In this document: positions 1 to 30,759 of the stretch, piece after piece
Numbering within the stretch: the stretch's first letter is position 1
Layout of the letters: each line of letters starts with the position of its first letter
Made by a program: the position numbers and the translations under genes
UHGV virus genome: UHGV-0286058
Strand: one strand, 5' to 3'
Origin: a virus
Length of the DNA stretch: 30,759 bases
The notes under the pieces: generated by a model
Told to the model about the DNA's origin: nothing
The model's database searches: none
The model's input: the letters and a program-made list of their open reading frames with translations, nothing else

Positions 1-285
1 GTGATAATTCGGGTGGATGTATTCTGCGTGTTCTTTTAAAAACTTTTCAAGTTCAAATCGGGAAAGATTTTTACTAATTAAAACATCCTCGACAACTATT
101 TTTTCAAATCCGCTTGTTTGTGCAGCAATTGCAAATATATCGCGGAGTGTCTGTGATTTCCCACTGTTATTAGGTCCGACAATGATTATTTTATCATTCT
201 CACCAAGATGTATGGTTTTACCACATTTAAATATTATTTTCTTGAAATTAATTGTTGGTAGAGGGAGGGTGTTCGTATAATTCAT
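1..285 (-). CDS. P-loop NTPase, N-terminal 95 aa only (gene runs off the window start)
   Basis: Reverse-strand ATG at 285-283, 2 nt after the int stop; translation MNYTNTLPLPTINFKKIIFKCGKTIHLGENDKIIIVGPNNSGKSQTLRDI... contains Walker A GPNNSGKS. AT-rich compared with flanking phage genes. The plus-strand ORF 17-280 in the track is its antisense shadow. Confidence 0.55.
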   Translation of the reverse strand, partial: MNYTNTLPLPTINFKKIIFKCGKTIHLGENDKIIIVGPNNSGKSQTLRDIFAIAAQTSGFEKIVVEDVLISKNLSRFELEKFLKEHAEYIHPNYH

Positions 286-286
286 A

Positions 287-1294
287 TTATATCTCCTTTA
301 CATATAATGGATTCAAAGTTACAGCATCTTCCAAATGGTTAGGTGCAAAGTGTGAGTAACGCATTGTCATTTTTATATCGGTATGACCGAGTATGCGTTG
401 AAGAACCAGAATATTACCACCATTCATCATAAAGTGACTGGCGAAGGTATGACGCAAAACGTGGGTAAGTTGCCCTGCCGGTAGTTCGATACCTGTTCTT
501 TCCAAAGCAGACCGGAATGCGCCATAGCAATCACTAAACAAACGACCTTTTTTATCATCAGGCAGAGACTCGTAGATCTCTTTGCTGATTGGAACAGTGC
601 GGTTTTTTCTACCTTTCGTGTTGGTGTATGTGATTTTGTATTTTGCGAGCTGGTTTTTTTTCAGACTCTCGGCCTCAGACCACCGTGCGCCAGTGGCGAG
701 ACAGATTCTTACCACAGCTTCTAAATCAGGGTTGCCATGTCGTTTACACTCTCCGAGCAGTTGCGAAATTTGGTCGTGAGTTAGCCAGGCCATTTCCAAT
801 TCTTCTGTGCGGAATGGGCGCATATTTTTCAGTGGGTTTTCACCCTTCCATTCTCCGAGACGGTTTAGTTCATTGAACACAGCCCGGAAGTAGGCCAGCT
901 CAAGGTTAAGAGTGCGAGGCGACACCTCTTTCACTCTGTTTGAACGGGCATACTCACCTTTTAACCGTTTTTCTCGGTAGCGGGAAAACATCTGCGCATC
1001 GAAATCGCGTGCGAGTGGTTCTCCCATACACTCAAAAGCATGGTGTATGGCTAACTGGCGTTTCAAGCCGTCTTTCAGCGTAATACCATGAGCGCTATAC
1101 CATGAATCAACCAGCTCTTTTAACGTGCGCCTGTCTTCCCTTTCTTCCTGCCATGGGTTTTGAACGGTGTACTGTTCAAACGCCAGAGCCTCGCCTTTAG
1201 TTGCGAATTTCTTTCTGATACGTTTGCCTTTTGCACCATTTGGGTAGATCTCACAAATCCAGCCGCCAGCCGGATTTTTACGGACAGTCATCAA
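287..1294 (-). CDS. int: tyrosine integrase (P2/186 type)
   Basis: 335 aa; C-terminal HVLRHTFAS ... LGHTDIKMTMRYSHF matches the tyrosine recombinase R..HxxR..Y catalytic region; position next to cI as in P2/186. Confidence 0.85.
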   Translation of the reverse strand: MMTVRKNPAGGWICEIYPNGAKGKRIRKKFATKGEALAFEQYTVQNPWQEEREDRRTLKELVDSWYSAHGITLKDGLKRQLAIHHAFECMGEPLARDFDAQMFSRYREKRLKGEYARSNRVKEVSPRTLNLELAYFRAVFNELNRLGEWKGENPLKNMRPFRTEELEMAWLTHDQISQLLGECKRHGNPDLEAVVRICLATGARWSEAESLKKNQLAKYKITYTNTKGRKNRTVPISKEIYESLPDDKKGRLFSDCYGAFRSALERTGIELPAGQLTHVLRHTFASHFMMNGGNILVLQRILGHTDIKMTMRYSHFAPNHLEDAVTLNPLYVKEI

Positions 1295-1971
1295 TTAACC
1301 TCGCTGTATACACCCACTACACGGCCAATCGTTTTTATCTCATCTATCCCGCACTCAAACGGTACTTTGCCGCCCGCAACGTGTAACTTTTTGCCGGGTA
1401 GGAGCGTCAATTCTCTGATGCTGGTAGCCCCCTCAATATCAACCAACCAAAGGCCATCAGAAAGTGAGGCATCTTGTTCTATGAAGTGCAGCTTTCCATC
1501 AGCGCGAACAGCAATACCTTTTGACATTTGCTTGCTAAAAAAACTGGCATCAATACTCAATGGTGAATTTTCTTCGAGTTTTCCATCACTCAGAGTGAAT
1601 GAGTCTATCGTTTTCGGAGCCGTTGGAGACGGTTTGCCATCATATTGAGAGCCTTGCCCCGTAAGAAGCCATAGCAGGCTTGCTCCGGTTTCTAGTGCGC
1701 ACTGTACGGCGAAATCATAAGAAACAGTGCCTCGCGTGTAGCGGTTTTGTAGGGAACTGGCGGCAATATTGAAGTGCCGGGCTAGCTGGATTTTTTGAGT
1801 AAAACCATATACTTGACAAATTCTATCCAGTAACTCGTCGTTATTCACCTGAGCATCAAGTATCAAAATATATTCCTTTGGGTATTTACTAATACTCGAT
1901 TGGGTATTAGTATCATTGCTAATTCGGGCAATCAGTGGCATAAGTTGGCAAACAGAGACCATTGATTGCAA
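1291..1971 (-). CDS. cI: CI-type immunity repressor (186 CI-like, HTH N-terminus)
   Basis: Divergent from apl/cII, directly upstream of int; helix-turn-helix-like segment QKIQLARHFNIAASSLQNRYTRG. Track start at 1971 is TTG; true start may be ATG at 1962 or 1941. Confidence 0.6.
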   Translation of the reverse strand: MQSMVSVCQLMPLIARISNDTNTQSSISKYPKEYILILDAQVNNDELLDRICQVYGFTQKIQLARHFNIAASSLQNRYTRGTVSYDFAVQCALETGASLLWLLTGQGSQYDGKPSPTAPKTIDSFTLSDGKLEENSPLSIDASFFSKQMSKGIAVRADGKLHFIEQDASLSDGLWLVDIEGATSIRELTLLPGKKLHVAGGKVPFECGIDEIKTIGRVVGVYSEVN

Positions 1972-1998
1972 ACATTGTCAAAATGGGAATCATGCAAC

Positions 1999-2262
1999 AT
2001 GGCTTCTGAAATCGCAATCATCAAAGTGCCTGCACCTATCGTTACTCTGCAGCAATTCGCAGAGCTTGAGGGTGTTTCTGAACGTACCGCTTACCGTTGG
2101 ACGACCGGCGACAATCCTTGCGTACCAATCGAACCTCGCACTATCCGTAAAGGCTGCAAGAAAGCCGGTGGCCCGATTCGTATTTATTACGCACGCTGGA
2201 AAGAAGAGCAGTTGCGTAAGGCGTTGGGGCATTCCCGTTTTCAACTCGTCATCGGCGCTTAA
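1999..2262 (+). CDS. apl: Apl/Cox-type excisionase and switch regulator
   Basis: 87 aa from ATG 1999 (MASEIAIIKV...), first gene of the rightward operon opposite cI, same position and size as 186 Apl. Confidence 0.55.
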   Translation: MASEIAIIKVPAPIVTLQQFAELEGVSERTAYRWTTGDNPCVPIEPRTIRKGCKKAGGPIRIYYARWKEEQLRKALGHSRFQLVIGA

Positions 2263-2292
2263 TTCACTTTATGTGAATTGTAAGGATGCAGC

Positions 2293-2802
2293 ATGTTTGA
2301 TTTTCAGATTTCCAAACATCCCCACTATGACGAAGCGTGCCGGGCTTTTGCGCAGCGTCACAACATGGCGAAGCTGGCCGAGCGCGCGAGTATGAATGTT
2401 CAGACGTTACGCAACAAACTCAATCCGGAACAGCCTCACCAGTTTACGCCGCCTGAATTGTGGCTGTTGACTGACCTGACCGAAGACTCGACCCTCGTTG
2501 ATGGTTTTCTGGCGCAGATTCATTGCCTACCATGCGTGCCGGTTAATGAGCTGGCTAAAGAAAAATTGCAGTCTTACGTTATGCGCGCAATGCGTGAACT
2601 CGGCGAGCTGGCGAGCGGTGCGGTATCTGATGAGCGTCTGACCACTGCCCGTAAGCACAACATGATTGAAAGCGTTAACTCTGGCATCCGCATGTTGTCA
2701 TTGTCGGCTCTGGCGCTGCATGCGCGTCTGCAGACTAATCCCGCTATGTCGAGTGTGGTCAATACCATGAGCGGTATTGGCGCATCGTTTGGTCTGATTT
2801 GA
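2293..2802 (+). CDS. cII: CII-like lysogeny establishment regulator
   Basis: 169 aa, AAGGA RBS, second gene of the rightward early operon; size and position as 186 CII. Confidence 0.5.
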   Translation: MFDFQISKHPHYDEACRAFAQRHNMAKLAERASMNVQTLRNKLNPEQPHQFTPPELWLLTDLTEDSTLVDGFLAQIHCLPCVPVNELAKEKLQSYVMRAMRELGELASGAVSDERLTTARKHNMIESVNSGIRMLSLSALALHARLQTNPAMSSVVNTMSGIGASFGLI

Positions 2803-5378: not shown

Positions 5379-5963
5379 TTGCAGGTGCGCACGCTGTATG
5401 AACCGCGCACTGAGTTTAACCAGTATGGTGAGGAAACCGTCTGCATCCGTGGCGTGTACGATTCCTCTGTAGGTTCTGGCACCCCGATTTTAACCAGGCT
5501 AACGCAGTGGAAAATTGTGCCGAAGCGTGCCGTTGATTTGGCCGTTGACGTTAAGGGCGCTCCTGCGCCCTCTCGGAGTTCTGTCAATAACTGTACGAGA
5601 AGCGAAAGCGATCCACCGATACTGGATTTAACAAAACCTCTGAGTCGGCGTGAGAGACGAGAGCTGACCAACCGACTCAGGAAGCAAAAGCCAGCAATAC
5701 GGCGAAAATTCATCCACGGAACGGATGAGCAAAATGCAGCTATAGCGAAAACCATCGACGAGATACATCTGACAACCGGCATCGCAATTAGCCGGGGCGA
5801 AGCCCTGCATCTGATGGCGGGTGGTAAAAGTTGTTATGGCGGTAAGTGGCTACGCGGAACAGCCAAAGGCGAAATATTTTCTGCAGCGCCATCACACCAA
5901 GTTAAAGCTAAGAAAATCCTCAATCGTGTGGCGGCTTTAGCTGAAATGACAACCAAAATGTAA
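5379..5963 (+). CDS. A: replication initiator A, C-terminal part (same frame as 3747-5330, separated only by one TGA)
   Basis: 5379 minus 3747 is divisible by 3; no other stop between 5331 and 5378; combined length 738 codons fits P2/186 A proteins (about 700-760 aa). Confidence 0.55.
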   Translation: MQVRTLYEPRTEFNQYGEETVCIRGVYDSSVGSGTPILTRLTQWKIVPKRAVDLAVDVKGAPAPSRSSVNNCTRSESDPPILDLTKPLSRRERRELTNRLRKQKPAIRRKFIHGTDEQNAAIAKTIDEIHLTTGIAISRGEALHLMAGGKSCYGGKWLRGTAKGEIFSAAPSHQVKAKKILNRVAALAEMTTKM

Positions 5964-6043
5964 CCCTTAATATTTATCCATATCATGTACATACAGCGTA
6001 TTTAATCGTGATTTTTTTCTTCACATCTTTTGTTAATACGTGC

Positions 6044-6063
6044 TACTGTATGTTTATACAGTA
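6044..6063. promoter_or_regulatory. LexA (SOS) operator overlapping the tum promoter
   Basis: TACTGTATGTTTATACAGTA is a perfect CTGT-N8-ACAG palindrome; TTGTTA (-35-like) lies just upstream and TATACA (-10-like) overlaps the box. Confidence 0.75.
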
Positions 6064-6108
6064 TCTCGTAGTGGAGGTTGTGTGGATAGAGAGTTAAGCG
6101 AGCACGTT

Positions 6109-6522
6109 ATGATTGAGCGGGTCGAAATGATTGCGCGTCTGACGGCTGAAGGCGCTTGTAAGGAAAGAGACCGCGAAATCGCATTGAATTTAATTGCGGA
6201 GATAGCAAGAAGGAACTTAATGAAAAACAACTCCTTCTCGGTTGTTTTCTCCCCAACGCCTATTGAAGAACGATTAAAAAGAGGGGGCGAGGTGAGGGTA
6301 AATATCATATTAGATAAAGACCAAAAAATAGGCCAGCCGGTGATTGATGCTTTTCAATGCGAATTGGCTAGGCGAGTACAGTCTATTTTCCCGTCAACGC
6401 GCGTTACAGTTAAAAAGGGATCCATGACAGGTGTGGAGCTGATGGGATTCGATAAAGATTCAGATCGAGAGGCGCTTGATAGTATCCTTCAGGAAGTGTG
6501 GGAGGATGAGAGCTGGCGTTAG
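6109..6522 (+). CDS. tum: Tum-like SOS-inducible antirepressor with DinI-like C-terminal domain
   Basis: C-terminal 80 aa (VRVNIILDKDQ...LDSILQEVWEDESWR) resembles DinI-family proteins; LexA box immediately upstream. Track ORF starts at GTG 6040 inside the operator; in-frame GTG 6082 would give 146 aa, ATG 6109 gives 137 aa. Confidence 0.6.
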   Translation: MIERVEMIARLTAEGACKERDREIALNLIAEIARRNLMKNNSFSVVFSPTPIEERLKRGGEVRVNIILDKDQKIGQPVIDAFQCELARRVQSIFPSTRVTVKKGSMTGVELMGFDKDSDREALDSILQEVWEDESWR

Positions 6523-6605
6523 TTCCTGAAAAATGTACAAACCGTGCCCCCATGTTTGATAGCATGGGGTTGTTTTTTTATGGGGATTACAAACAAAGGA
6601 AAATC

Positions 6606-7337
6606 ATGGATACCGTTATAGCATTTTTATCTCTGGTGCTCTTTCTTGCTTTTATCGTGGGTTTAATCAAGCCGTCGCTGGTTCGAATGCCGAACCGTAA
6701 GCGCTCCAGTGCGGTTTATCTCGGTGGCTGTCTGGCGCTGGGTGTTATTGGCTCAATCTTATGGCCGACTGAAAAAAGTCAGCCTGTGGCAAAAAACGAT
6801 GTACCGGCGGTTAAAGCGGAACCGGCTACGCCAACGTTTGAGTACGCAGATAAAACACTCAAAGAATATCGCAACGAGCCAAAAGAAACCCGGCACGATA
6901 TCGTTAAAGGATATGTTGGCTTCAAAGGTGTACCGGCCAGCTCTGCTGATGCCTTTTATGCCTGTATGAGTGAGTACACTTTTACTAAAGATGATGCGTT
7001 AAAGCTCGGTGATGTGTTGGGGTGGTGTTTTAACGACTTCGAGAAGGATCCACAATCTCTGAATAATAAAATCAACCTTGACGCATTTCAGGGTAATTTC
7101 AGCGGTTGGGATGGCTCTTATCGCCCGTTAGAGATGCTGATAAAAGCCAGCATGAATGATGATTCCTCTTATAAACATGTTTCAACGGTCTACCATCTGA
7201 TTTTGAATAAAGACCCGCATGCCATTGTAAAAACGACGTTTCGCGGCACTAATGCTTATGGTGGCGTGGTCAAACAGACCGTAGCTGCGCGCGTCAACGT
7301 GCGAACGGGTGAGGTCGATTCGATACTCGACAATTAA
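6606..7337 (+). CDS. membrane-anchored accessory protein, function unknown
   Basis: ATG 6606 with AAGGA RBS; N-terminal hydrophobic helices (VIAFLSLVLFLAFIVGLI, AVYLGGCLALGVIGSILW) followed by about 170 aa soluble domain with no motif I recognise. Lies between tum and cos, the position of old/tin in P2. Confidence 0.5.
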   Translation: MDTVIAFLSLVLFLAFIVGLIKPSLVRMPNRKRSSAVYLGGCLALGVIGSILWPTEKSQPVAKNDVPAVKAEPATPTFEYADKTLKEYRNEPKETRHDIVKGYVGFKGVPASSADAFYACMSEYTFTKDDALKLGDVLGWCFNDFEKDPQSLNNKINLDAFQGNFSGWDGSYRPLEMLIKASMNDDSSYKHVSTVYHLILNKDPHAIVKTTFRGTNAYGGVVKQTVAARVNVRTGEVDSILDN

Positions 7338-7446
7338 ATAATATAGTGACAAACGCCGCCGGTGCTGAAACTCGTTTTCCGTGCTGGCGGGGTTGAACAA
7401 CGAGCCTGCGAGGCGTTAGATACATATAATCGAAAGAGGATGGATT

Positions 7447-7995
7447 ATGTCAAAGTTTACAGAGTTGTGCAGCGCATATACTGAGTTTCAGAACAAACTT
7501 TCTGATACTCGACTTGCTGCGTTTAACTTTTCTAGTCTCGTGATTAAAAATTATTTAGATTATCTTGGTATTGATAATGTAGAAACATATAAATTAATCC
7601 CGTTAGATAAAGATGAAAAACTAAATACGAAATATACACCCGCTGGAGCTACTCATTTAGGGGATGATGGGTTCTGGCATTTAGGATTTGTATTGACTGT
7701 CTATAAAGACTCTAATACTTACCCGCAGTCGCCTTTCCAAATAGATTTCAAATTCAGAAAAAATGATGATGGCTCATATACATTTGGTGTTGATAGCATA
7801 GATTTTGCAACAAAAATTACCTCTCTCAGTAACTCAAATGAATTCACACCTGTATTTGATAAAATTCAAGAGTGCATTCTAGGGCACTTTAAAGAATTTG
7901 AAGACTTTCTTGTTGGTAAGCATGACAAGATGTCATCCATTGGATTCATTCAAGAAGGTATTTTTGCGAAAATTAACAGCGAAAAAAATGCGTAA
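7447..7995 (+). CDS. AT-rich accessory protein, function unknown
   Basis: 182 aa, AGAGGA RBS, visibly lower GC than neighbours, followed by hairpin plus T-run; no transmembrane segment, no recognisable motif. Confidence 0.55.
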   Translation: MSKFTELCSAYTEFQNKLSDTRLAAFNFSSLVIKNYLDYLGIDNVETYKLIPLDKDEKLNTKYTPAGATHLGDDGFWHLGFVLTVYKDSNTYPQSPFQIDFKFRKNDDGSYTFGVDSIDFATKITSLSNSNEFTPVFDKIQECILGHFKEFEDFLVGKHDKMSSIGFIQEGIFAKINSEKNA

Positions 7996-11316: not shown

Positions 11317-12171
11317 ATGGCAAAAAAAGTCTCAAAATTCTTTCGCATCGGCGTCGAAGGTGACACCTGCGACGGCCGCATTATCAGCGGTAACGATATT
11401 CAGGAAATGGCCGAATCGTTTGACCCTCGTGTCTACGGTTGCCGTATTAACCTTGAGCATATTCGCGGCCTCTTTCCCGATGGCGATTTCAAACGCTTAG
11501 GCGATGTGGTCGAGCTGAAAGCCGAGAAGATTGACGACGATTCTGCGCTTAACGGCAAATGGGCGTTGTTCGCCAGAATCACCCCGACAGACGACCTGAT
11601 TGCGATGAATAAAAAATTGCAGAAGGTCTACACCTCAATGGAAATTCAGCCGAATTTTGCCAATACCGGCAAATGCTACCTCGTCGGTCTTGCGGTCACC
11701 GATGACCCGGCGAGCCTCGGCACTGAATACCTCGAATTCTGCCGCAACGCGAAACACAACCCTCTGCAGCGCTTTAAGGCCAACCCTGAAAACGTCTTTT
11801 CCGCTGCCACGCTGGCCGAGTTGGAATTTGAAGACGTTCCTGACACGGTACTCAACAGCCTGGCGGATAAGGTGAAAGCCATTTTCAGCCGTAAGCAGGT
11901 CAGCGACGATGCGCGCCTGAATGATGTGCATGAAGCGGTGACCACCGTCAGCGAACATGTGCAGACTAACCTGACCAAACAGGACGAGCGTCTTTCCGCT
12001 ATGGAAACCGCGTTTGCCACTTTCAAACAGGAACTGACCGGCAAGATTGAAGAAACCAGCCAGGCATTTTCCACTCTGAAAACCACCCTCGACAAAACAG
12101 AAAGTTTCAGCCAGCCGCGACGCACGAAAGCCAGCGGCGGTGGTGGCGATGAGCTGCTGACTGACTGCTGA
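11317..12171 (+). CDS. O: capsid scaffolding protein
   Basis: 284 aa, same as P2 O; first gene of the rightward head operon. Confidence 0.8.
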   Translation: MAKKVSKFFRIGVEGDTCDGRIISGNDIQEMAESFDPRVYGCRINLEHIRGLFPDGDFKRLGDVVELKAEKIDDDSALNGKWALFARITPTDDLIAMNKKLQKVYTSMEIQPNFANTGKCYLVGLAVTDDPASLGTEYLEFCRNAKHNPLQRFKANPENVFSAATLAELEFEDVPDTVLNSLADKVKAIFSRKQVSDDARLNDVHEAVTTVSEHVQTNLTKQDERLSAMETAFATFKQELTGKIEETSQAFSTLKTTLDKTESFSQPRRTKASGGGGDELLTDC

Positions 12172-29168: not shown

Positions 29169-29816
29169 CTACCTCAAAAGGCCTTCAGTCAATTCTTCGC
29201 CCGTACAGAATTGATATAGTGCACGAAGGTTCTCTTCAATCCACGTTATCTCTTTTAATGCATAACCTGAGAAACCGATCATAATATTTTCTATTTCAAT
29301 GAGTTGTGCAGAGTCTTTGTTATCTACAATCGAATCATAAAAGTGCTTTAACTCAACTATAGCTTTAAAGGCTGCATCCATCTTTTCATAAAAAACTGAA
29401 TCAGTTTTCGATACATCGTATAAAAATCTTGAGAAATTTTCCGTAGATGGTTCTGGAAGGAGGCCACCTGATTGTTTTCTTCCACTTTTTAATACTATGT
29501 AACGTGTTTTTCCTGCAGTGGTTTTGAACACTTGAAGATCTAATATACGTTCATGTTGTGGTTTTTTTTCATATGGCTCAAATGTTTCGCAAAGCTTTTT
29601 GATCTGCCCGTTGATATGCCAAGCAACCTGGCACTCCCGAGCAAATATTTGCTTTAAGGCGCGAATCTCATTTTTTCTCGCTTTAGATTTACGACGACAA
29701 TCTAACAATTCCCTAATAATGAAGAGAAAGATTGCAACAAAAGCAGATGCTGGAATGAGCGTTCCACTCGTCAAAAGGCTAACCCAATCACATTGTGTTG
29801 CAGTTTCTACCGCCAT
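29169..29816 (-). CDS. AT-rich accessory protein with N-terminal membrane anchor, function unknown
   Basis: 215 aa from ATG 29816 (track start 29858 would overlap the tRNA terminator); helix LIPASAFVAIFLFII then soluble domain; convergent with ogr; low GC. Confidence 0.5.
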   Translation of the reverse strand: MAVETATQCDWVSLLTSGTLIPASAFVAIFLFIIRELLDCRRKSKARKNEIRALKQIFARECQVAWHINGQIKKLCETFEPYEKKPQHERILDLQVFKTTAGKTRYIVLKSGRKQSGGLLPEPSTENFSRFLYDVSKTDSVFYEKMDAAFKAIVELKHFYDSIVDNKDSAQLIEIENIMIGFSGYALKEITWIEENLRALYQFCTGEELTEGLLR

Positions 29817-29844
29817 TTTATCGCCACCCCGAAATTGATAAACA

Positions 29845-29875
29845 AAAAGGCCACCCAAGTGAGTGGCCTAACTGT
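29845..29875 (-). terminator. intrinsic terminator downstream of the tRNA
   Basis: Minus strand reads AGGCCACTCACTTGGGTGGCC followed by TTTTTGTTT, directly after the tRNA 3' end. Confidence 0.4.
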
Positions 29876-29885
29876 CGGTATTTAC

Positions 29886-29961
29886 TGCTTAAATTTGGTG
29901 GCCCCTGCTGGACTTGAACCAGCGACCAAGCGATTATGAGTCGCCTGCTCTAACCACTGAG
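29886..29961 (-). tRNA. ileX: tRNA with CAU anticodon, identical in my recollection to E. coli tRNA-Ile2 (ileX/ileY); not an elongator tRNA-Met sequence
   Basis: 76 nt GGCCCCTTAGCTCAGTGGTTAGAGCAGGCGACTCATAATCGCTTGGTCGCTGGTTCAAGTCCAGCAGGGGCCACCA on the minus strand; anticodon loop CUCAUAA; divergent mug-like gene upstream matches the E. coli mug-ileX neighbourhood. Confidence 0.8.
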
Positions 29962-30095
29962 CTAAGGGGCCGTGGCGGTGAATTATAAAGTAACTCCCCT
30001 CAGCAATCCAGCCATTCACACCTGCCTGCTGTTTTTATAAACAACGCATAATCAATCCTTTATACTTATCTTAAGATGCATAGACAGGAGTAGAG

Positions 30096-30224
30096 ATGAT
30101 CAACGATATTCTGGCCCCTGGCCTGCGGGTGGTGTTCTGCGGTATTAATCCGGGCAAGTCATCGGCGCACACCGGTTTTCACTTTGCTCATCCGGGAAAT
30201 CGCTTCTGGAAGGTGATCCACTAA
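30096..30224 (+). pseudogene. mug: mug (G/U mismatch DNA glycosylase) 5' fragment, truncated after 42 codons
   Basis: [42 protein letters not shown] closely resembles the N-terminus of E. coli Mug (168 aa); stop TAA is the first 3 nt of the tRNA-derived repeat. Confidence 0.6.
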
Positions 30225-30262
30225 TCGCTTGGTCGCTGGTTCAAGTCCAGCAGGGGCCACCA
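30222..30262 (+). repeat. 41-nt copy of the tRNA 3' half (anticodon loop to CCA), inverted relative to the intact tRNA; att-core-like repeat
   Basis: TAATCGCTTGGTCGCTGGTTCAAGTCCAGCAGGGGCCACCA is identical to tRNA positions 36-76; the sequence after it is homologous but diverged from that after the intact tRNA. Confidence 0.6.
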
Positions 30263-30287
30263 AATTTTAGCTTTAGAATCATCCAGT

Positions 30288-30316
30288 TAAGCCACTCGAT
30301 TGAGTGGCTTTTTTGT
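30288..30316 (+). terminator. intrinsic terminator following the partial tRNA copy
   Basis: AAGCCACTC-GATT-GAGTGGCTT followed by TTTTGT; a diverged paralogue of the terminator at 29845-29875. Confidence 0.4.
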
Positions 30317-30480
30317 AAGTAATCCACCACACGTAGCCCGGCCTGCCGCTTCCCCTCACAAACCCTAAAAACTAAAGAAATCCCCCATCGCGCCGATCAT
30401 CATCCGTGTGTATTATTTCCTGTAGCTTTTACAACAACTAACCTTAACTCAAATACTTAAGCGCCAGAGCGAAAGGCATC

Positions 30481-30648
30481 ATGAGCACACCGATCAAACG
30501 GCTAGAAATCATTAAAAATGCCATTGAGCTGGAAGATGACGACATCATCCGGAGCCAGCTGAAACGTCTCAAAGAGGAAGCCTTTGACGATGATCTCCTG
30601 TCCATCGTCGCGGCGCTTGAGTCTCCGCCTGCTGACGACGCAGGTTAA
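30481..30648 (+). CDS. small acidic hypothetical protein (55 aa)
   Basis: ATG with GAAAGG 6 nt upstream; an overlapping minus-strand frame is also open to the window end, so the coding strand is unresolved. Confidence 0.25.
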   Translation: MSTPIKRLEIIKNAIELEDDDIIRSQLKRLKEEAFDDDLLSIVAALESPPADDAG

Positions 30649-30759
30649 GCTCCGCCAGCGTTTTACGCAGGGCGAGGATCTGCTGCATCAACGGCCCGAG
30701 GCGGGAGAAATAAAGATCGTTGAACTCATCTAGCTGCTGTACCCGGGCGTTACGGCGAT

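What the first reader, a model, noticed from the sequence alone, without database searches (positions are those of the whole stretch)
1..286. P-loop ATPase gene immediately downstream of the integrase, truncated by the window edge
A gene starting 2 nt after the int stop encodes an N-terminus with Walker A motif GPNNSGKS preceded by a short beta-strand-like segment. That arrangement is typical of AAA_21/ABC-like ATPases found in OLD-family nucleases, Gabija/Septu-type and abortive-infection systems. P2/186 have no such gene after int, so this is prophage-borne cargo at the attL-proximal end, and its partners probably lie just beyond the window.
Basis: partly seen in the sequence, partly recalled or inferred. 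Interest (0 to 1): 0.5.

Follow-up and report, generated by a model that had tools for sequence, protein, structure and literature searches.

The report
OLD-family defence nuclease on 186-like prophage
The cut-off gene at the window's left edge is the start of a 580-residue OLD-family ATPase-nuclease, a known kind of anti-phage protein, carried as cargo right after the integrase gene of a phage-186-like prophage; it is a fairly ordinary find.

Summary
A minus-strand ORF starts at ATG 285..283, one base after the int stop codon. It has an AGGAG ribosome-binding site and the Walker A motif GPNNSGKS, and it runs 95 codons to the window edge.

A public contig, L010, is 99.9% identical to window 1-2616 and continues past the edge. 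There the gene is 1743 nt (580 aa) and identical to an E. coli "ATP-dependent nuclease". Seventy-four bases after its stop lies the displaced 3' half of the tRNA (attL). There is no partner gene.

The full protein has an ABC-type ATPase fused to an OLD-like TOPRIM nuclease. The support comes from Pfam, the PADLOC "Old" model, and a fold match to Thermus OLD, GajA and the Retron-Eco8 OLD. It is therefore a single-gene ("class 1") OLD nuclease, only about 29% identical to P2 Old in the conserved core.

It sits in the int-attP slot. That slot holds orf69 in phage 186, is empty in some relatives, and holds many other defence-like genes in the rest.

The most likely role is a defence nuclease made in the lysogen from the cI-int operon, acting by abortive infection. 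Its trigger and substrate are unknown.

Verdict: a new member of a known kind, of modest interest.

The parts
1..285 (-). 5' end (codons 1-95 of 580) of a class 1 OLD-family ATPase-TOPRIM nuclease gene, cut by the window edge. Walker A GPNNSGKS is at codons 37-44 (window 177..154).
   Evidence: Translation. The residues are 100% identical to P0124 residues 1-95. L010 is 99.885% identical and continues to a 580-aa ORF.
293..297 (-). Shine-Dalgarno AGGAG, 7 nt upstream of the OLD ATG and embedded in the last codons of int.
   Evidence: Read directly from the sequence. Purine-rich SD-like sequences sit at the same place in L004, L005, L006 and L002.
287..1291 (-). Tyrosine integrase of the phage-186 type. 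Its TAA stop (289..287) is 1 nt from the OLD start, and its ATG (1291..1289) overlaps the cI stop by 1 nt.
   Evidence: Pfam Int_N and Phage_integrase. About 92-93% nucleotide identity to 186 int.
1291..1971 (-). CI repressor gene, the first gene of the lysogenic operon cI-int-OLD.
   Evidence: Homology to 186 cI.
1989..2017 (-). Counterpart of the 186 pL promoter (-35 TTGCGA at 2017..2012, -10 CATGAT at 1994..1989). Inferred to drive cI-int-OLD in the lysogen.
   Evidence: Both hexamers are identical to the annotated 186 pL in alignment A5 (annotation). No promoter-like or terminator-like site lies on this strand between pL and the OLD start.
29896..29971 (-). Complete tRNA (anticodon CAT, ileX/ileY type) forming the attR junction. 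Its 3' 46 nt is the sequence repeated at attL just beyond the window's left edge.
   Evidence: ARAGORN. The 46-nt repeat is found 74 nt after the OLD stop in L010 and in L004, L006, L007 and L009. The 186 attP annotation is.

Best explanation
**What it is.** Window 1-285 (minus strand) is the start of a 1743-nt gene for a single-chain OLD-family nuclease, genomic-context class 1. The N-terminal ABC-type ATPase carries Walker A K43, Walker B D245/E246 and H-loop H276. It is fused to a C-terminal TOPRIM nuclease with E341, D343/D345, K375 and D397xD399.

**Where it sits.** The gene is AT-rich cargo that exactly fills the slot between the int stop codon and the P' arm of attP in a phage-186-like (Eganvirus-type) prophage integrated at an ileX-type tRNA.

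**How it is expressed (inferred).**
- The gene is 1 nt from int, and int overlaps cI by 1 nt.
- The 186 pL promoter hexamers are conserved.
- No promoter-like or terminator-like site was found between pL and the gene.
- It is therefore probably made constitutively in the lysogen as the third gene of the cI-int operon.

**What it does (inferred).**
- By analogy with P2 Old and Vibrio cholerae Vc OLD, the protein probably stays inactive until another phage infects.
- ATP binding and hydrolysis would then license the TOPRIM site to cut nucleic acid.
- This would stop the infection at the cost of the infected cell (abortive infection), protecting the lysogen population and the resident prophage.
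- The trigger and the substrate are not known for this clade. P2 Old cuts tRNA anticodon stems and Vc OLD nicks DNA.

**Shown versus inferred.** Gene identity, domain architecture, conserved catalytic residues, position inside the att boundaries and absence of a partner gene are shown. Expression from pL, anti-phage function and the abortive mechanism are inferred.
For: **Identity and extension**
- The 95 codons are identical to P0124.
- L010 is 99.885% identical over window 1-2616. It gives the whole 580-aa ORF, then 74 nt, then the tRNA 3' fragment.

**Architecture**
- Pfam AAA_21 (52 bits), AAA_15 (42 bits) and OLD-like_TOPRIM (32 bits) all exceed their cut-offs.
- The best PADLOC model is Old, E=4e-27.
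- The best solved relative by sequence is Thermus scotoductus class 1 OLD, 6p74.
- The AlphaFold model has pLDDT 86.7. Its top Foldseek hits are all full-length OLD proteins: Retron-Eco8 OLD, 6p74 and GajA.
- Identity to P2 Old is 29% over Walker B to TOPRIM, E=3e-18.
- The ATPase and TOPRIM motif residues are invariant in 68 homologues.

**Single gene inside the prophage**
- The int-OLD-attL order recurs in L009 and L010, and int-OLD recurs in L001 and L005.
- It also recurs in prophage remnants L004 and L006-L008.
- The P' arm is conserved with 186.

**Cargo nature**
- The gene is 33-36% G+C against 52.7% for the prophage.
- The slot is empty in phages EtG and PHB48.
- The slot holds orf69 in phage 186.
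- In 23 IMG/VR prophages it holds at least 20 unrelated cargoes. Several match defence models: PD-T7-3, PDC-S49, PDC-S15, an Argonaute-associated nuclease and a TIR domain.

**Expression**
- The pL hexamers are conserved.
- No promoter or terminator matches lie between pL and the gene, or between the gene and attL.

**Function by analogy**
- P2 Old: PMC12445682.
- Vc OLD: PMC12392090.
- Class definitions: PMC10568477.
Against: - The window holds only 95 of 580 codons, so whether this copy is intact cannot be seen.
- Relatives with in-frame TGA stops exist (L001, L002). So does a split E. coli version of 137 + 420 aa. Inactive copies are therefore common.
- No member of this clade has been tested.
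- It is only distantly related to the two class 1 OLDs with shown anti-phage activity. It is 29% identical to P2 Old in the core.
- It is not Vc OLD. Vc OLD has K48/D313/D468/D470, against K43/D245/D397/D399 here.
- Transcription from pL is inferred from 186, not measured.
- Simple promoter scans are weak evidence of absence.
Confidence: 0.8

Rival explanations
1. The ATPase is one half of a multi-gene system whose partner lies beyond the window. Candidates are Gabija (GajA plus GajB helicase), Septu, PARIS (AriA plus AriB) or a retron-OLD system.
For: The 95-aa fragment alone gives weak hits to AriA, GajA, PtuA and MADS ATPases. The full protein also hits GajA and AriA models, at 1e-15 to 1e-16.
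Against: - In L010, the same phage at 99.9% identity, the gene is followed after 74 nt by attL and preceded by int.
- In L004, L006, L007 and L009, host genes follow attL.
- No helicase, reverse transcriptase or DUF4435 gene is present.
- The nuclease is fused and matches OLD-like_TOPRIM. No DUF4435 hit was listed.
- The AriAB-fusion model matches only residues 231-288.
Confidence: 0.04
2. OLD works together with the 215-aa membrane-anchored ORF on the other side of attP (window 29169-29858). The two genes are adjacent and co-oriented in the excised circular phage genome, forming a two-gene system split by integration.
For: - Both genes are AT-rich cargo flanking attP.
- Both occur together in the window and in the diverged prophage L001, where the ORF is 44% identical.
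- The longest-contig sizes of OLD variants and ORF homologues coincide in E. coli (307,396 nt) and Klebsiella oxytoca (1,316,663 nt).
Against: - E. coli A15 carries a 58%-identical homologue of the ORF paired with a different int-slot cargo, a 415-aa protein.
- The prophage remnants L004 and L006-L008 keep an intact OLD with no homologue of the ORF.
- The two genes lie about 250 bp apart in the phage genome, so close linkage alone explains co-occurrence.
Confidence: 0.08
3. The copy in this genome is a decaying, non-functional pseudogene, or a toxic gene kept silent, with no present role.
For: In-frame TGA stops occur in L001 and L002. L002 also has a frameshifted int. A split 137 + 420 aa version occurs in E. 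coli on 7 contigs. Only 95 codons are visible here.
Against: - The visible 95 codons are intact and identical to the intact 580-aa form, which is seen on 120 contigs.
- L010, 99.9% identical, is intact.
- Intact OLD is retained in remnants where the rest of the prophage has been lost, in loci whose OLD proteins are about 66% identical to each other (L004 against L006-L008). This suggests selection to keep it.
Confidence: 0.1
4. It is a host chromosomal (housekeeping) ATPase that merely abuts the prophage.
For: In Citrobacter (L004) and in L006-L008 the gene sits next to mug and the tRNA with no intact prophage.
Against: - Those loci still carry the int 3' remnant upstream and the attL tRNA repeat downstream. 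They are therefore prophage remnants.
- The gene is absent from all 5,426 complete E. coli genomes searched.
- Its G+C is 33-36%.
Confidence: 0.01

Closest known systems
P2 Old (class 1 OLD nuclease of phage P2, UniProt P13520)
   Same: Both are single-chain proteins of the same size (586 and 580 aa). [quoted passage not shown] Both are encoded by a P2-family temperate phage as non-essential lysogenic-conversion cargo with no partner gene. The best PADLOC model for this protein is Old.
   Different: - Identity is only 29% over 178 aa, from Walker B to TOPRIM. The N-terminal halves barely align.
- The locus differs. P2 old sits in the gpA-gpQ cos-proximal hotspot with its own promoter (PMC9122126). 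This gene sits in the int-attP slot, apparently within the cI-int operon.
- P2 Old's trigger (RecBCD inhibition) and substrate (tRNA-Thr anticodon stem; PMC12445682) are untested here.
Thermus scotoductus OLD (PDB 6P74), the structural archetype of class 1
   Same: It is the best solved relative by sequence. It is among the top three fold matches with a full-length alignment. The ATPase-TOPRIM order is the same.
   Different: About 12% identity in the structural alignment. Global TM-score is only about 0.4, so domain arrangement or inserts differ. TsOLD is chromosomal and has no known phage target (PMC10568477).
Vibrio cholerae Vc OLD (PMC12392090)
   Same: Class 1 context. Anti-phage activity needs the Walker A, Walker B and TOPRIM DxD residues. 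It is carried on a mobile defence element with an integrase.
   Different: It belongs to a different clade. The motif positions K48/D313/D468/D470 imply roughly 68 extra residues in the ATPase compared with K43/D245/D397/D399 here. The V. cholerae proteins that are 57% identical to this family are 565-aa proteins whose listed accessions do not include HAS2513945.1.
GajA (Gabija, class 2 OLD) and the Retron-Eco8 OLD (class 3)
   Same: Same fold family and the same ATPase-TOPRIM logic.
   Different: They need a GajB helicase, or a reverse transcriptase plus ncRNA, next door. Neither is present here.
Accessory-gene hotspots of P2-like prophages
   Same: A variable, defence-rich slot in a P2-family prophage. 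A "third hotspot between a tail protein and CI" has been noted by automated annotation (bioRxiv 10.1101/2024.10.15.618418). A cI-int hotspot is known in K139-like Vibrio phages (PMC9122126).
   Different: Here the slot is resolved to the nucleotide, from the int stop codon to the Int arm-type sites of the P' arm. Cargo ORFs abut or overlap the int stop codon. Some of them (OLD, and the 262-aa cargo of L059) read into the arm sites.

Membership tests
OLD-family nuclease | N-terminal ABC-type ATPase with Walker A, Walker B and H-loop | tested here: met
   - Walker A GPNNSGKS is visible in the window itself.
- In the full-length P0124, AAA_21 and AAA_15 exceed the Pfam cut-offs.
- G37, N39, N40, G42, K43, S44, D245, E246 and H276 are invariant in 68 homologues.
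- The fold matches Rad50/SMC-type ABC heads and OLD ATPases.
OLD-family nuclease | C-terminal TOPRIM domain with conserved acidic metal-binding residues (E ... DxD) on the same chain | tested here: met
   - PF20469 OLD-like_TOPRIM scores 32.3 bits against a cut-off of 23.2, at residues 333-399.
- E341, D342, D343, D345, G374, K375, D397 and D399 are invariant.
- The region aligns to the TOPRIM of P2 Old and of 6p74.
- This was tested on P0124, P0004 and L010, not on the window, which ends at codon 95.
OLD-family nuclease | ATP-dependent nuclease activity | not testable with these tools
   Needs purified protein and DNA or tRNA cleavage assays.
Class 1 OLD (single-gene context) | No adjacent UvrD/PcrA-like helicase (class 2), reverse transcriptase plus ncRNA (class 3) or separate AriB (class 4) | tested here: met
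   Upstream is int and downstream is attL, followed by host genes. This holds in L010, L004, L006, L007 and L009. The class definitions are from PMC10568477.
Class 1 OLD (single-gene context) | Anti-phage activity sufficient on its own | not testable with these tools
   Only P2 Old and Vc OLD have been shown to defend (PMC10568477, PMC12392090). This clade is untested.
PARIS (AriA/AriB or fused AriAB) | DUF4435-type TOPRIM effector, separate or fused | tested here: not met
   No DUF4435 hit in Pfam at E<=0.01. The AriAB model matches only residues 231-288.
Gabija | GajB helicase gene adjacent to GajA | tested here: not met
   No gene lies between OLD and attL, or between int and OLD.
Prophage cargo (moron) of a 186-like phage | Lies between the phage's att junctions, is absent from close relatives, and has atypical composition | tested here: met
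   - The attL repeat follows the gene.
- The gene is absent from 186, EtG and PHB48.
- Its G+C is 33-36% against 52.7% for the prophage.

The most novel reading that the evidence does not exclude
The int-attP slot of 186-like (Eganvirus-type) prophages would be a nucleotide-precise defence hotspot. Cargo would be expressed by coupling to the cI-int lysogenic operon, and cargo ORFs can run into the Int arm-type binding sites. This gives unrelated proteins the same disordered C-terminal tail (...GDKVAIEMADNE in OLD, ...GDIVAIDMANKR in the L059 cargo). The OLD carried here would represent an uncharacterised, widespread class 1 clade (about 1,100 clusters at E<=1e-30) with its own trigger and substrate. 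It would also be valuable enough to survive as a domesticated remnant after the prophage is lost.
Probability: 0.4. Interest if true: 0.45.

Novelty: new member of a known kind. Interest (0 to 1): 0.3.

Why it matters
Few class 1 OLD nucleases have been tested. Only P2 Old and Vc OLD have shown anti-phage activity, and the two differ in trigger and substrate. This gene belongs to a third clade that is well conserved and widespread. It sits in a genetically tractable coliphage relative, 186, whose lysogenic operon is among the best understood. It would therefore be a convenient model for asking two questions: what activates a stand-alone OLD, and what it cuts.

The survey also shows that the few hundred bases between int and attP in 186-like prophages form a rich slot of defence candidates, many of them unannotated. 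This adds detail to hotspots already reported for P2-like phages, but it does not change how the field views prophage-borne defence.

Tried and rejected
1. **Homologue search with the 95-aa fragment alone.** It returned only three short fragments and missed the 580-aa cluster. A longer query built from L002 found it.
2. **Nucleotide and protein searches of reference collections.** Neither 5,426 complete E. coli genomes nor 50,697 phage records match window 1-305. The gene is rare there, so the extension had to come from other collections.
3. **Look-ups with P0124.** I used the window's own fragment instead.
4. **Is this Vc OLD?** Rejected on motif spacing and on the accessions listed for the V. 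cholerae relatives.
5. **Is ORF229 an obligate partner across attP?** Rejected, because E. coli A15 and the remnants uncouple the two genes. A viral-contig scan for ORF229 found nothing.
6. **Is the inverted att copy at 30222-30316 an assembly hairpin?** Rejected, because the arms are only 85% alike. Its origin remains unexplained.
7. **Is the host E. coli?** The mug region is only 81-83% identical to E. coli, so the host is another enterobacterium. It was not identified.
8. **Are the in-frame TGA codons in L001 and L002 programmed recoding?** They lie at different positions, and the L002 codon is CGA in the window. Simple nonsense mutations or assembly errors are more likely.

Full report
**1. 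The observation**

The window is a phage-186-like prophage. On the minus strand, int occupies 1291..287 and its TAA stop is at 289..287. One base later, an ATG at 285..283 opens a frame that stays open for 95 codons to the window edge. An AGGAG at 297..293 lies 7 nt upstream of that ATG.

The product begins MNYTNTLPLPTINFKKIIFKCGKTIHLGENDKIIIVGPNNSGKSQ... Scanned alone, the fragment gives only sub-threshold ATPase hits (AAA_15 at E=6e-4, also SMC_N, ABC_tran and AAA_21). Its G+C is 33%, against 52.7% for the prophage.

**2. Extending past the window edge**

Neither 5,426 complete E. coli genomes nor the phage collection contain window 1-305. Their matches stop at the int stop codon.

A protein search with the fragment found only three short products. 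Their contigs were informative. In L001, a 186-like prophage has an ATPase-TOPRIM ORF after int, interrupted by an in-frame TGA. In L002, a frameshifted int is followed by an 84%-identical ORF that also carries a TGA.

A search with the longer L002 product found a large family of 555-600-aa "ATP-dependent nucleases". Its closest cluster contains P0124, a 580-aa E. coli protein seen on 120 contigs. The first 95 residues of P0124 are identical to the window's.

A scan of species-representative genomes with the window's own fragment then returned L010.
- L010 is a 4.4-kb metagenomic contig labelled as a Bacillota MAG, which is almost certainly mis-binned.
- It is 99.885% identical to window 1-2616 and continues leftwards.
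- In L010 the gene is 1743 nt, and its product is identical to P0124.
- Its stop codon is followed after 74 nt by ACTCATAATCGCTTGGTCGCTGGTTCAAGTCCAGCAGGGGCCACCA. This is the 3' 46 nt of the tRNA that stands complete at window 29896-29971.
- That repeat is attL. There is no further gene before it.

**3. What the protein is**

- Pfam: P0124 passes the cut-offs for AAA_21, AAA_15 and OLD-like_TOPRIM.
- PADLOC: the best model is Old (4e-27), ahead of AriA, GajA and others.
- Solved structures by sequence: the best relative is Thermus scotoductus class 1 OLD, 6p74.
- P2 Old: 29% identity over the Walker B-TOPRIM core, E=3e-18.
- Conserved residues: in an alignment of 68 homologues the invariant positions are G37, N39, N40, G42, K43 and S44 of Walker A. 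Also invariant are Q151, Q220-G-D-G223, D245-E246-P-E (Walker B) and H276. In the TOPRIM domain, E341, D342, D343, D345, G374, K375, D397 and D399 are invariant.
- Structure: an AlphaFold model of P0004 (91% identical to the fragment) has pLDDT 86.7 and pTM 0.82. Strand 32-36 leads into the P-loop and helix 43-55.
- Fold search: the best Foldseek matches are full-length OLD proteins, namely the Retron-Eco8 OLD, 6p74 and GajA. Rad50/SMC heads match the ATPase part only.
- Family size: an exhaustive search counts about 1,100 50%-identity clusters at E<=1e-30, so this is a substantial clade.
- It is not Vc OLD. That protein's catalytic residues (K48, D313, D468/D470; PMC12392090) imply a longer ATPase insert. 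The 57%-identical V. cholerae relatives carry other listed accessions.

**4. Context and class**

The order cI-int-OLD recurs in L005 (OLD 78% identical to the L002-derived query) and in L009 (56% to that query), where the tRNA 3' fragment (attL) follows 130 nt after the stop. It recurs in L001. In L062 the order int-OLD-attL recurs with an OLD 48% identical to P0124.

It also recurs in prophage remnants of the form mug - tRNA - 60-aa ORF - int 3' stump - OLD - attL: L004 (Citrobacter), L006, L007 and L008.

No helicase, reverse transcriptase or separate TOPRIM gene is adjacent in any of these loci. By the context-based scheme of PMC10568477, this is a class 1 OLD.

**5. The slot**

In phage 186 the lysogenic operon runs cI-int-orf69. 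attP follows, and the predicted operon terminator lies beyond attP.

Alignment A2 shows that the roughly 110-nt P' arm next to the core is conserved between 186 and the OLD-carrying loci. OLD replaces orf69 exactly.

Its last 13 codons are GAT GGC GAT AAA GTG GCG ATA GAA ATG GCG GAT AAC GAG TAA. They are written across the TGGCGRTA repeats that 186 annotates as Int arm-type sites. The corresponding tail (residues 566-580) is disordered in the model.

The slot's content varies widely:
- It is empty in phages EtG and PHB48.
- E. coli EC-1639 has a 301-aa protein there, and G47-1 has a DUF6602 plus SEC-C pair.
- Among 80 IMG/VR loci with a related int, about 20 are empty and 23 carry 0.5-2.5 kb of at least 20 unrelated cargoes.
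- Six of ten cargo representatives match defence or defence-candidate models: PD-T7-3, DzbB-like, a CAP12-type TIR, KAP-NTPase PDC-S49, an Argonaute-associated nuclease and FRG/PDC-S15.
- Only one of the 80 loci (L062) carries an OLD.
- One unrelated cargo (L059) also ends ...GDIVAIDMANKR, meaning it too reads into the arm sites.

A hotspot "between a tail protein and CI" in P2-like phages has already been noted (bioRxiv 10.1101/2024.10.15.618418). Rousset et al. describe related hotspots (PMC9122126). The hotspot itself is therefore not new.

**6. Expression (inferred)**

The cI stop and the int start overlap by 1 nt, and int and OLD are 1 nt apart. The 186 pL hexamers are conserved at 2017..2012 and 1994..1989.

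No promoter-like or terminator-like match lies on this strand between pL and OLD, or between OLD and attL. OLD is therefore most simply the third gene of the lysogenic operon, made in the lysogen.

**7. Mechanism (inferred)**

P2 Old is activated when RecBCD is inhibited and severs tRNA anticodon stems (PMC12445682). Vc OLD acts independently of RecBCD, nicks DNA in vitro and blocks phage replication. Both act by abortive infection, and the ATPase and TOPRIM residues are required for Vc OLD defence and for P2 Old killing of recBC cells (PMC12392090).

I expect the same general logic here. The trigger and substrate remain open.

Two patterns in the relatives are worth noting. Recurrent nonsense or split alleles fit a protein that is costly or toxic. 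Retention of an intact gene in prophage remnants fits a benefit.

**8. Rivals**

- *Multi-gene system with a partner beyond the edge.* Excluded by L010.
- *Host housekeeping gene.* Excluded by the att repeats.
- *Two-gene system with the 215-aa ORF across attP (window 29169-29858).* This looked possible, because both genes co-occur in the window and in L001. E. coli A15 pairs that ORF with a different int-slot cargo, and the remnants keep OLD without it.
- *Pseudogene in this genome.* Cannot be excluded from 95 codons.

**9. Verdict**

It is a new member of a known kind: a class 1 OLD nuclease carried as prophage cargo.

The modest points of interest are threefold. The clade is untested. The gene sits inside the cI-int operon. 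And the ORF runs into the Int arm sites.

Noticed in passing
window 29169-29858 (minus strand; likely real start ATG at 29816): A second AT-rich (38% G+C) cargo ORF of 215-229 aa sits between ogr/B and the attR P arm. It has an N-terminal hydrophobic stretch that looks like a transmembrane helix. It is absent from 186, EtG and PHB48, and has no Pfam or PADLOC hit. It belongs to a small Enterobacteriaceae-only family of 31 proteins. Homologues sit at the same position in L001 (44% identity) and in E. coli A15 (58%). It does not appear to be an obligate partner of OLD.
   Followed up: partly
window 30096-30316: mug is cut off at codon 42 (30221). It abuts an inverted second copy of the attR arm, made of the tRNA 3' ~45 nt plus the terminator hairpin, at 30222-30316. 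This copy is 85% complementary to 29842-29936. It looks like the scar of another 186-like integration or a rearrangement. It is not an assembly hairpin. Its origin is unexplained.
   Followed up: partly
window 30372-30757: This stretch matches L001 15186-15435 and, in reverse, L001 15580-15714. The host DNA to the right of the prophage is therefore rearranged relative to the closest available relative. The mug region is only 81-83% identical to E. coli, so the host is another enterobacterium, which I did not identify.
   Followed up: no
window 5379-7995: This is the gpA-gpQ region, the classical P2 old/tin defence hotspot. It holds a DinI-like ORF (6040-6522) and three ORFs (5379-5963, 6552-7337, 7447-7995) with no Pfam or PADLOC hit. 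These are possible further cargo.
   Followed up: partly
L001 10001-11740; L002 440-1861; E. coli proteins P0138 and P0127: OLD homologues in this slot are repeatedly broken. L001 and L002 carry in-frame TGA codons at different positions, and L002 also has a frameshifted int. A split 137 + 420 aa version occurs on 7 E. coli contigs. This suggests the gene is costly, although some breaks could be assembly errors.
   Followed up: partly
L004 8900-11870; L006 7200-9920; L007; L008: These are prophage remnants consisting only of tRNA, a 60-aa ORF, an 85-aa int stump, an intact OLD and attL, next to mug. They occur in Citrobacter and in metagenomes, with OLD alleles about 66% identical to each other. 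The intact OLD appears to have been kept after the phage was lost.
   Followed up: partly
L010 (JAEZXR010000087.1): This contig is labelled as a Bacillota MAG but is 99.9% identical to this enterobacterial prophage, so it is almost certainly mis-binned. Its first 228 nt match window 11704-11931 rather than the adjacent sequence, so the contig is also chimeric or comes from a recombinant.
   Followed up: no
L059 6999-7787; alignment A2: An unrelated 262-aa cargo protein in the same slot ends ...GDIVAIDMANKR. This tail resembles that of OLD, because both ORFs read through the Int arm-type sites of the attP P' arm.
   Followed up: partly
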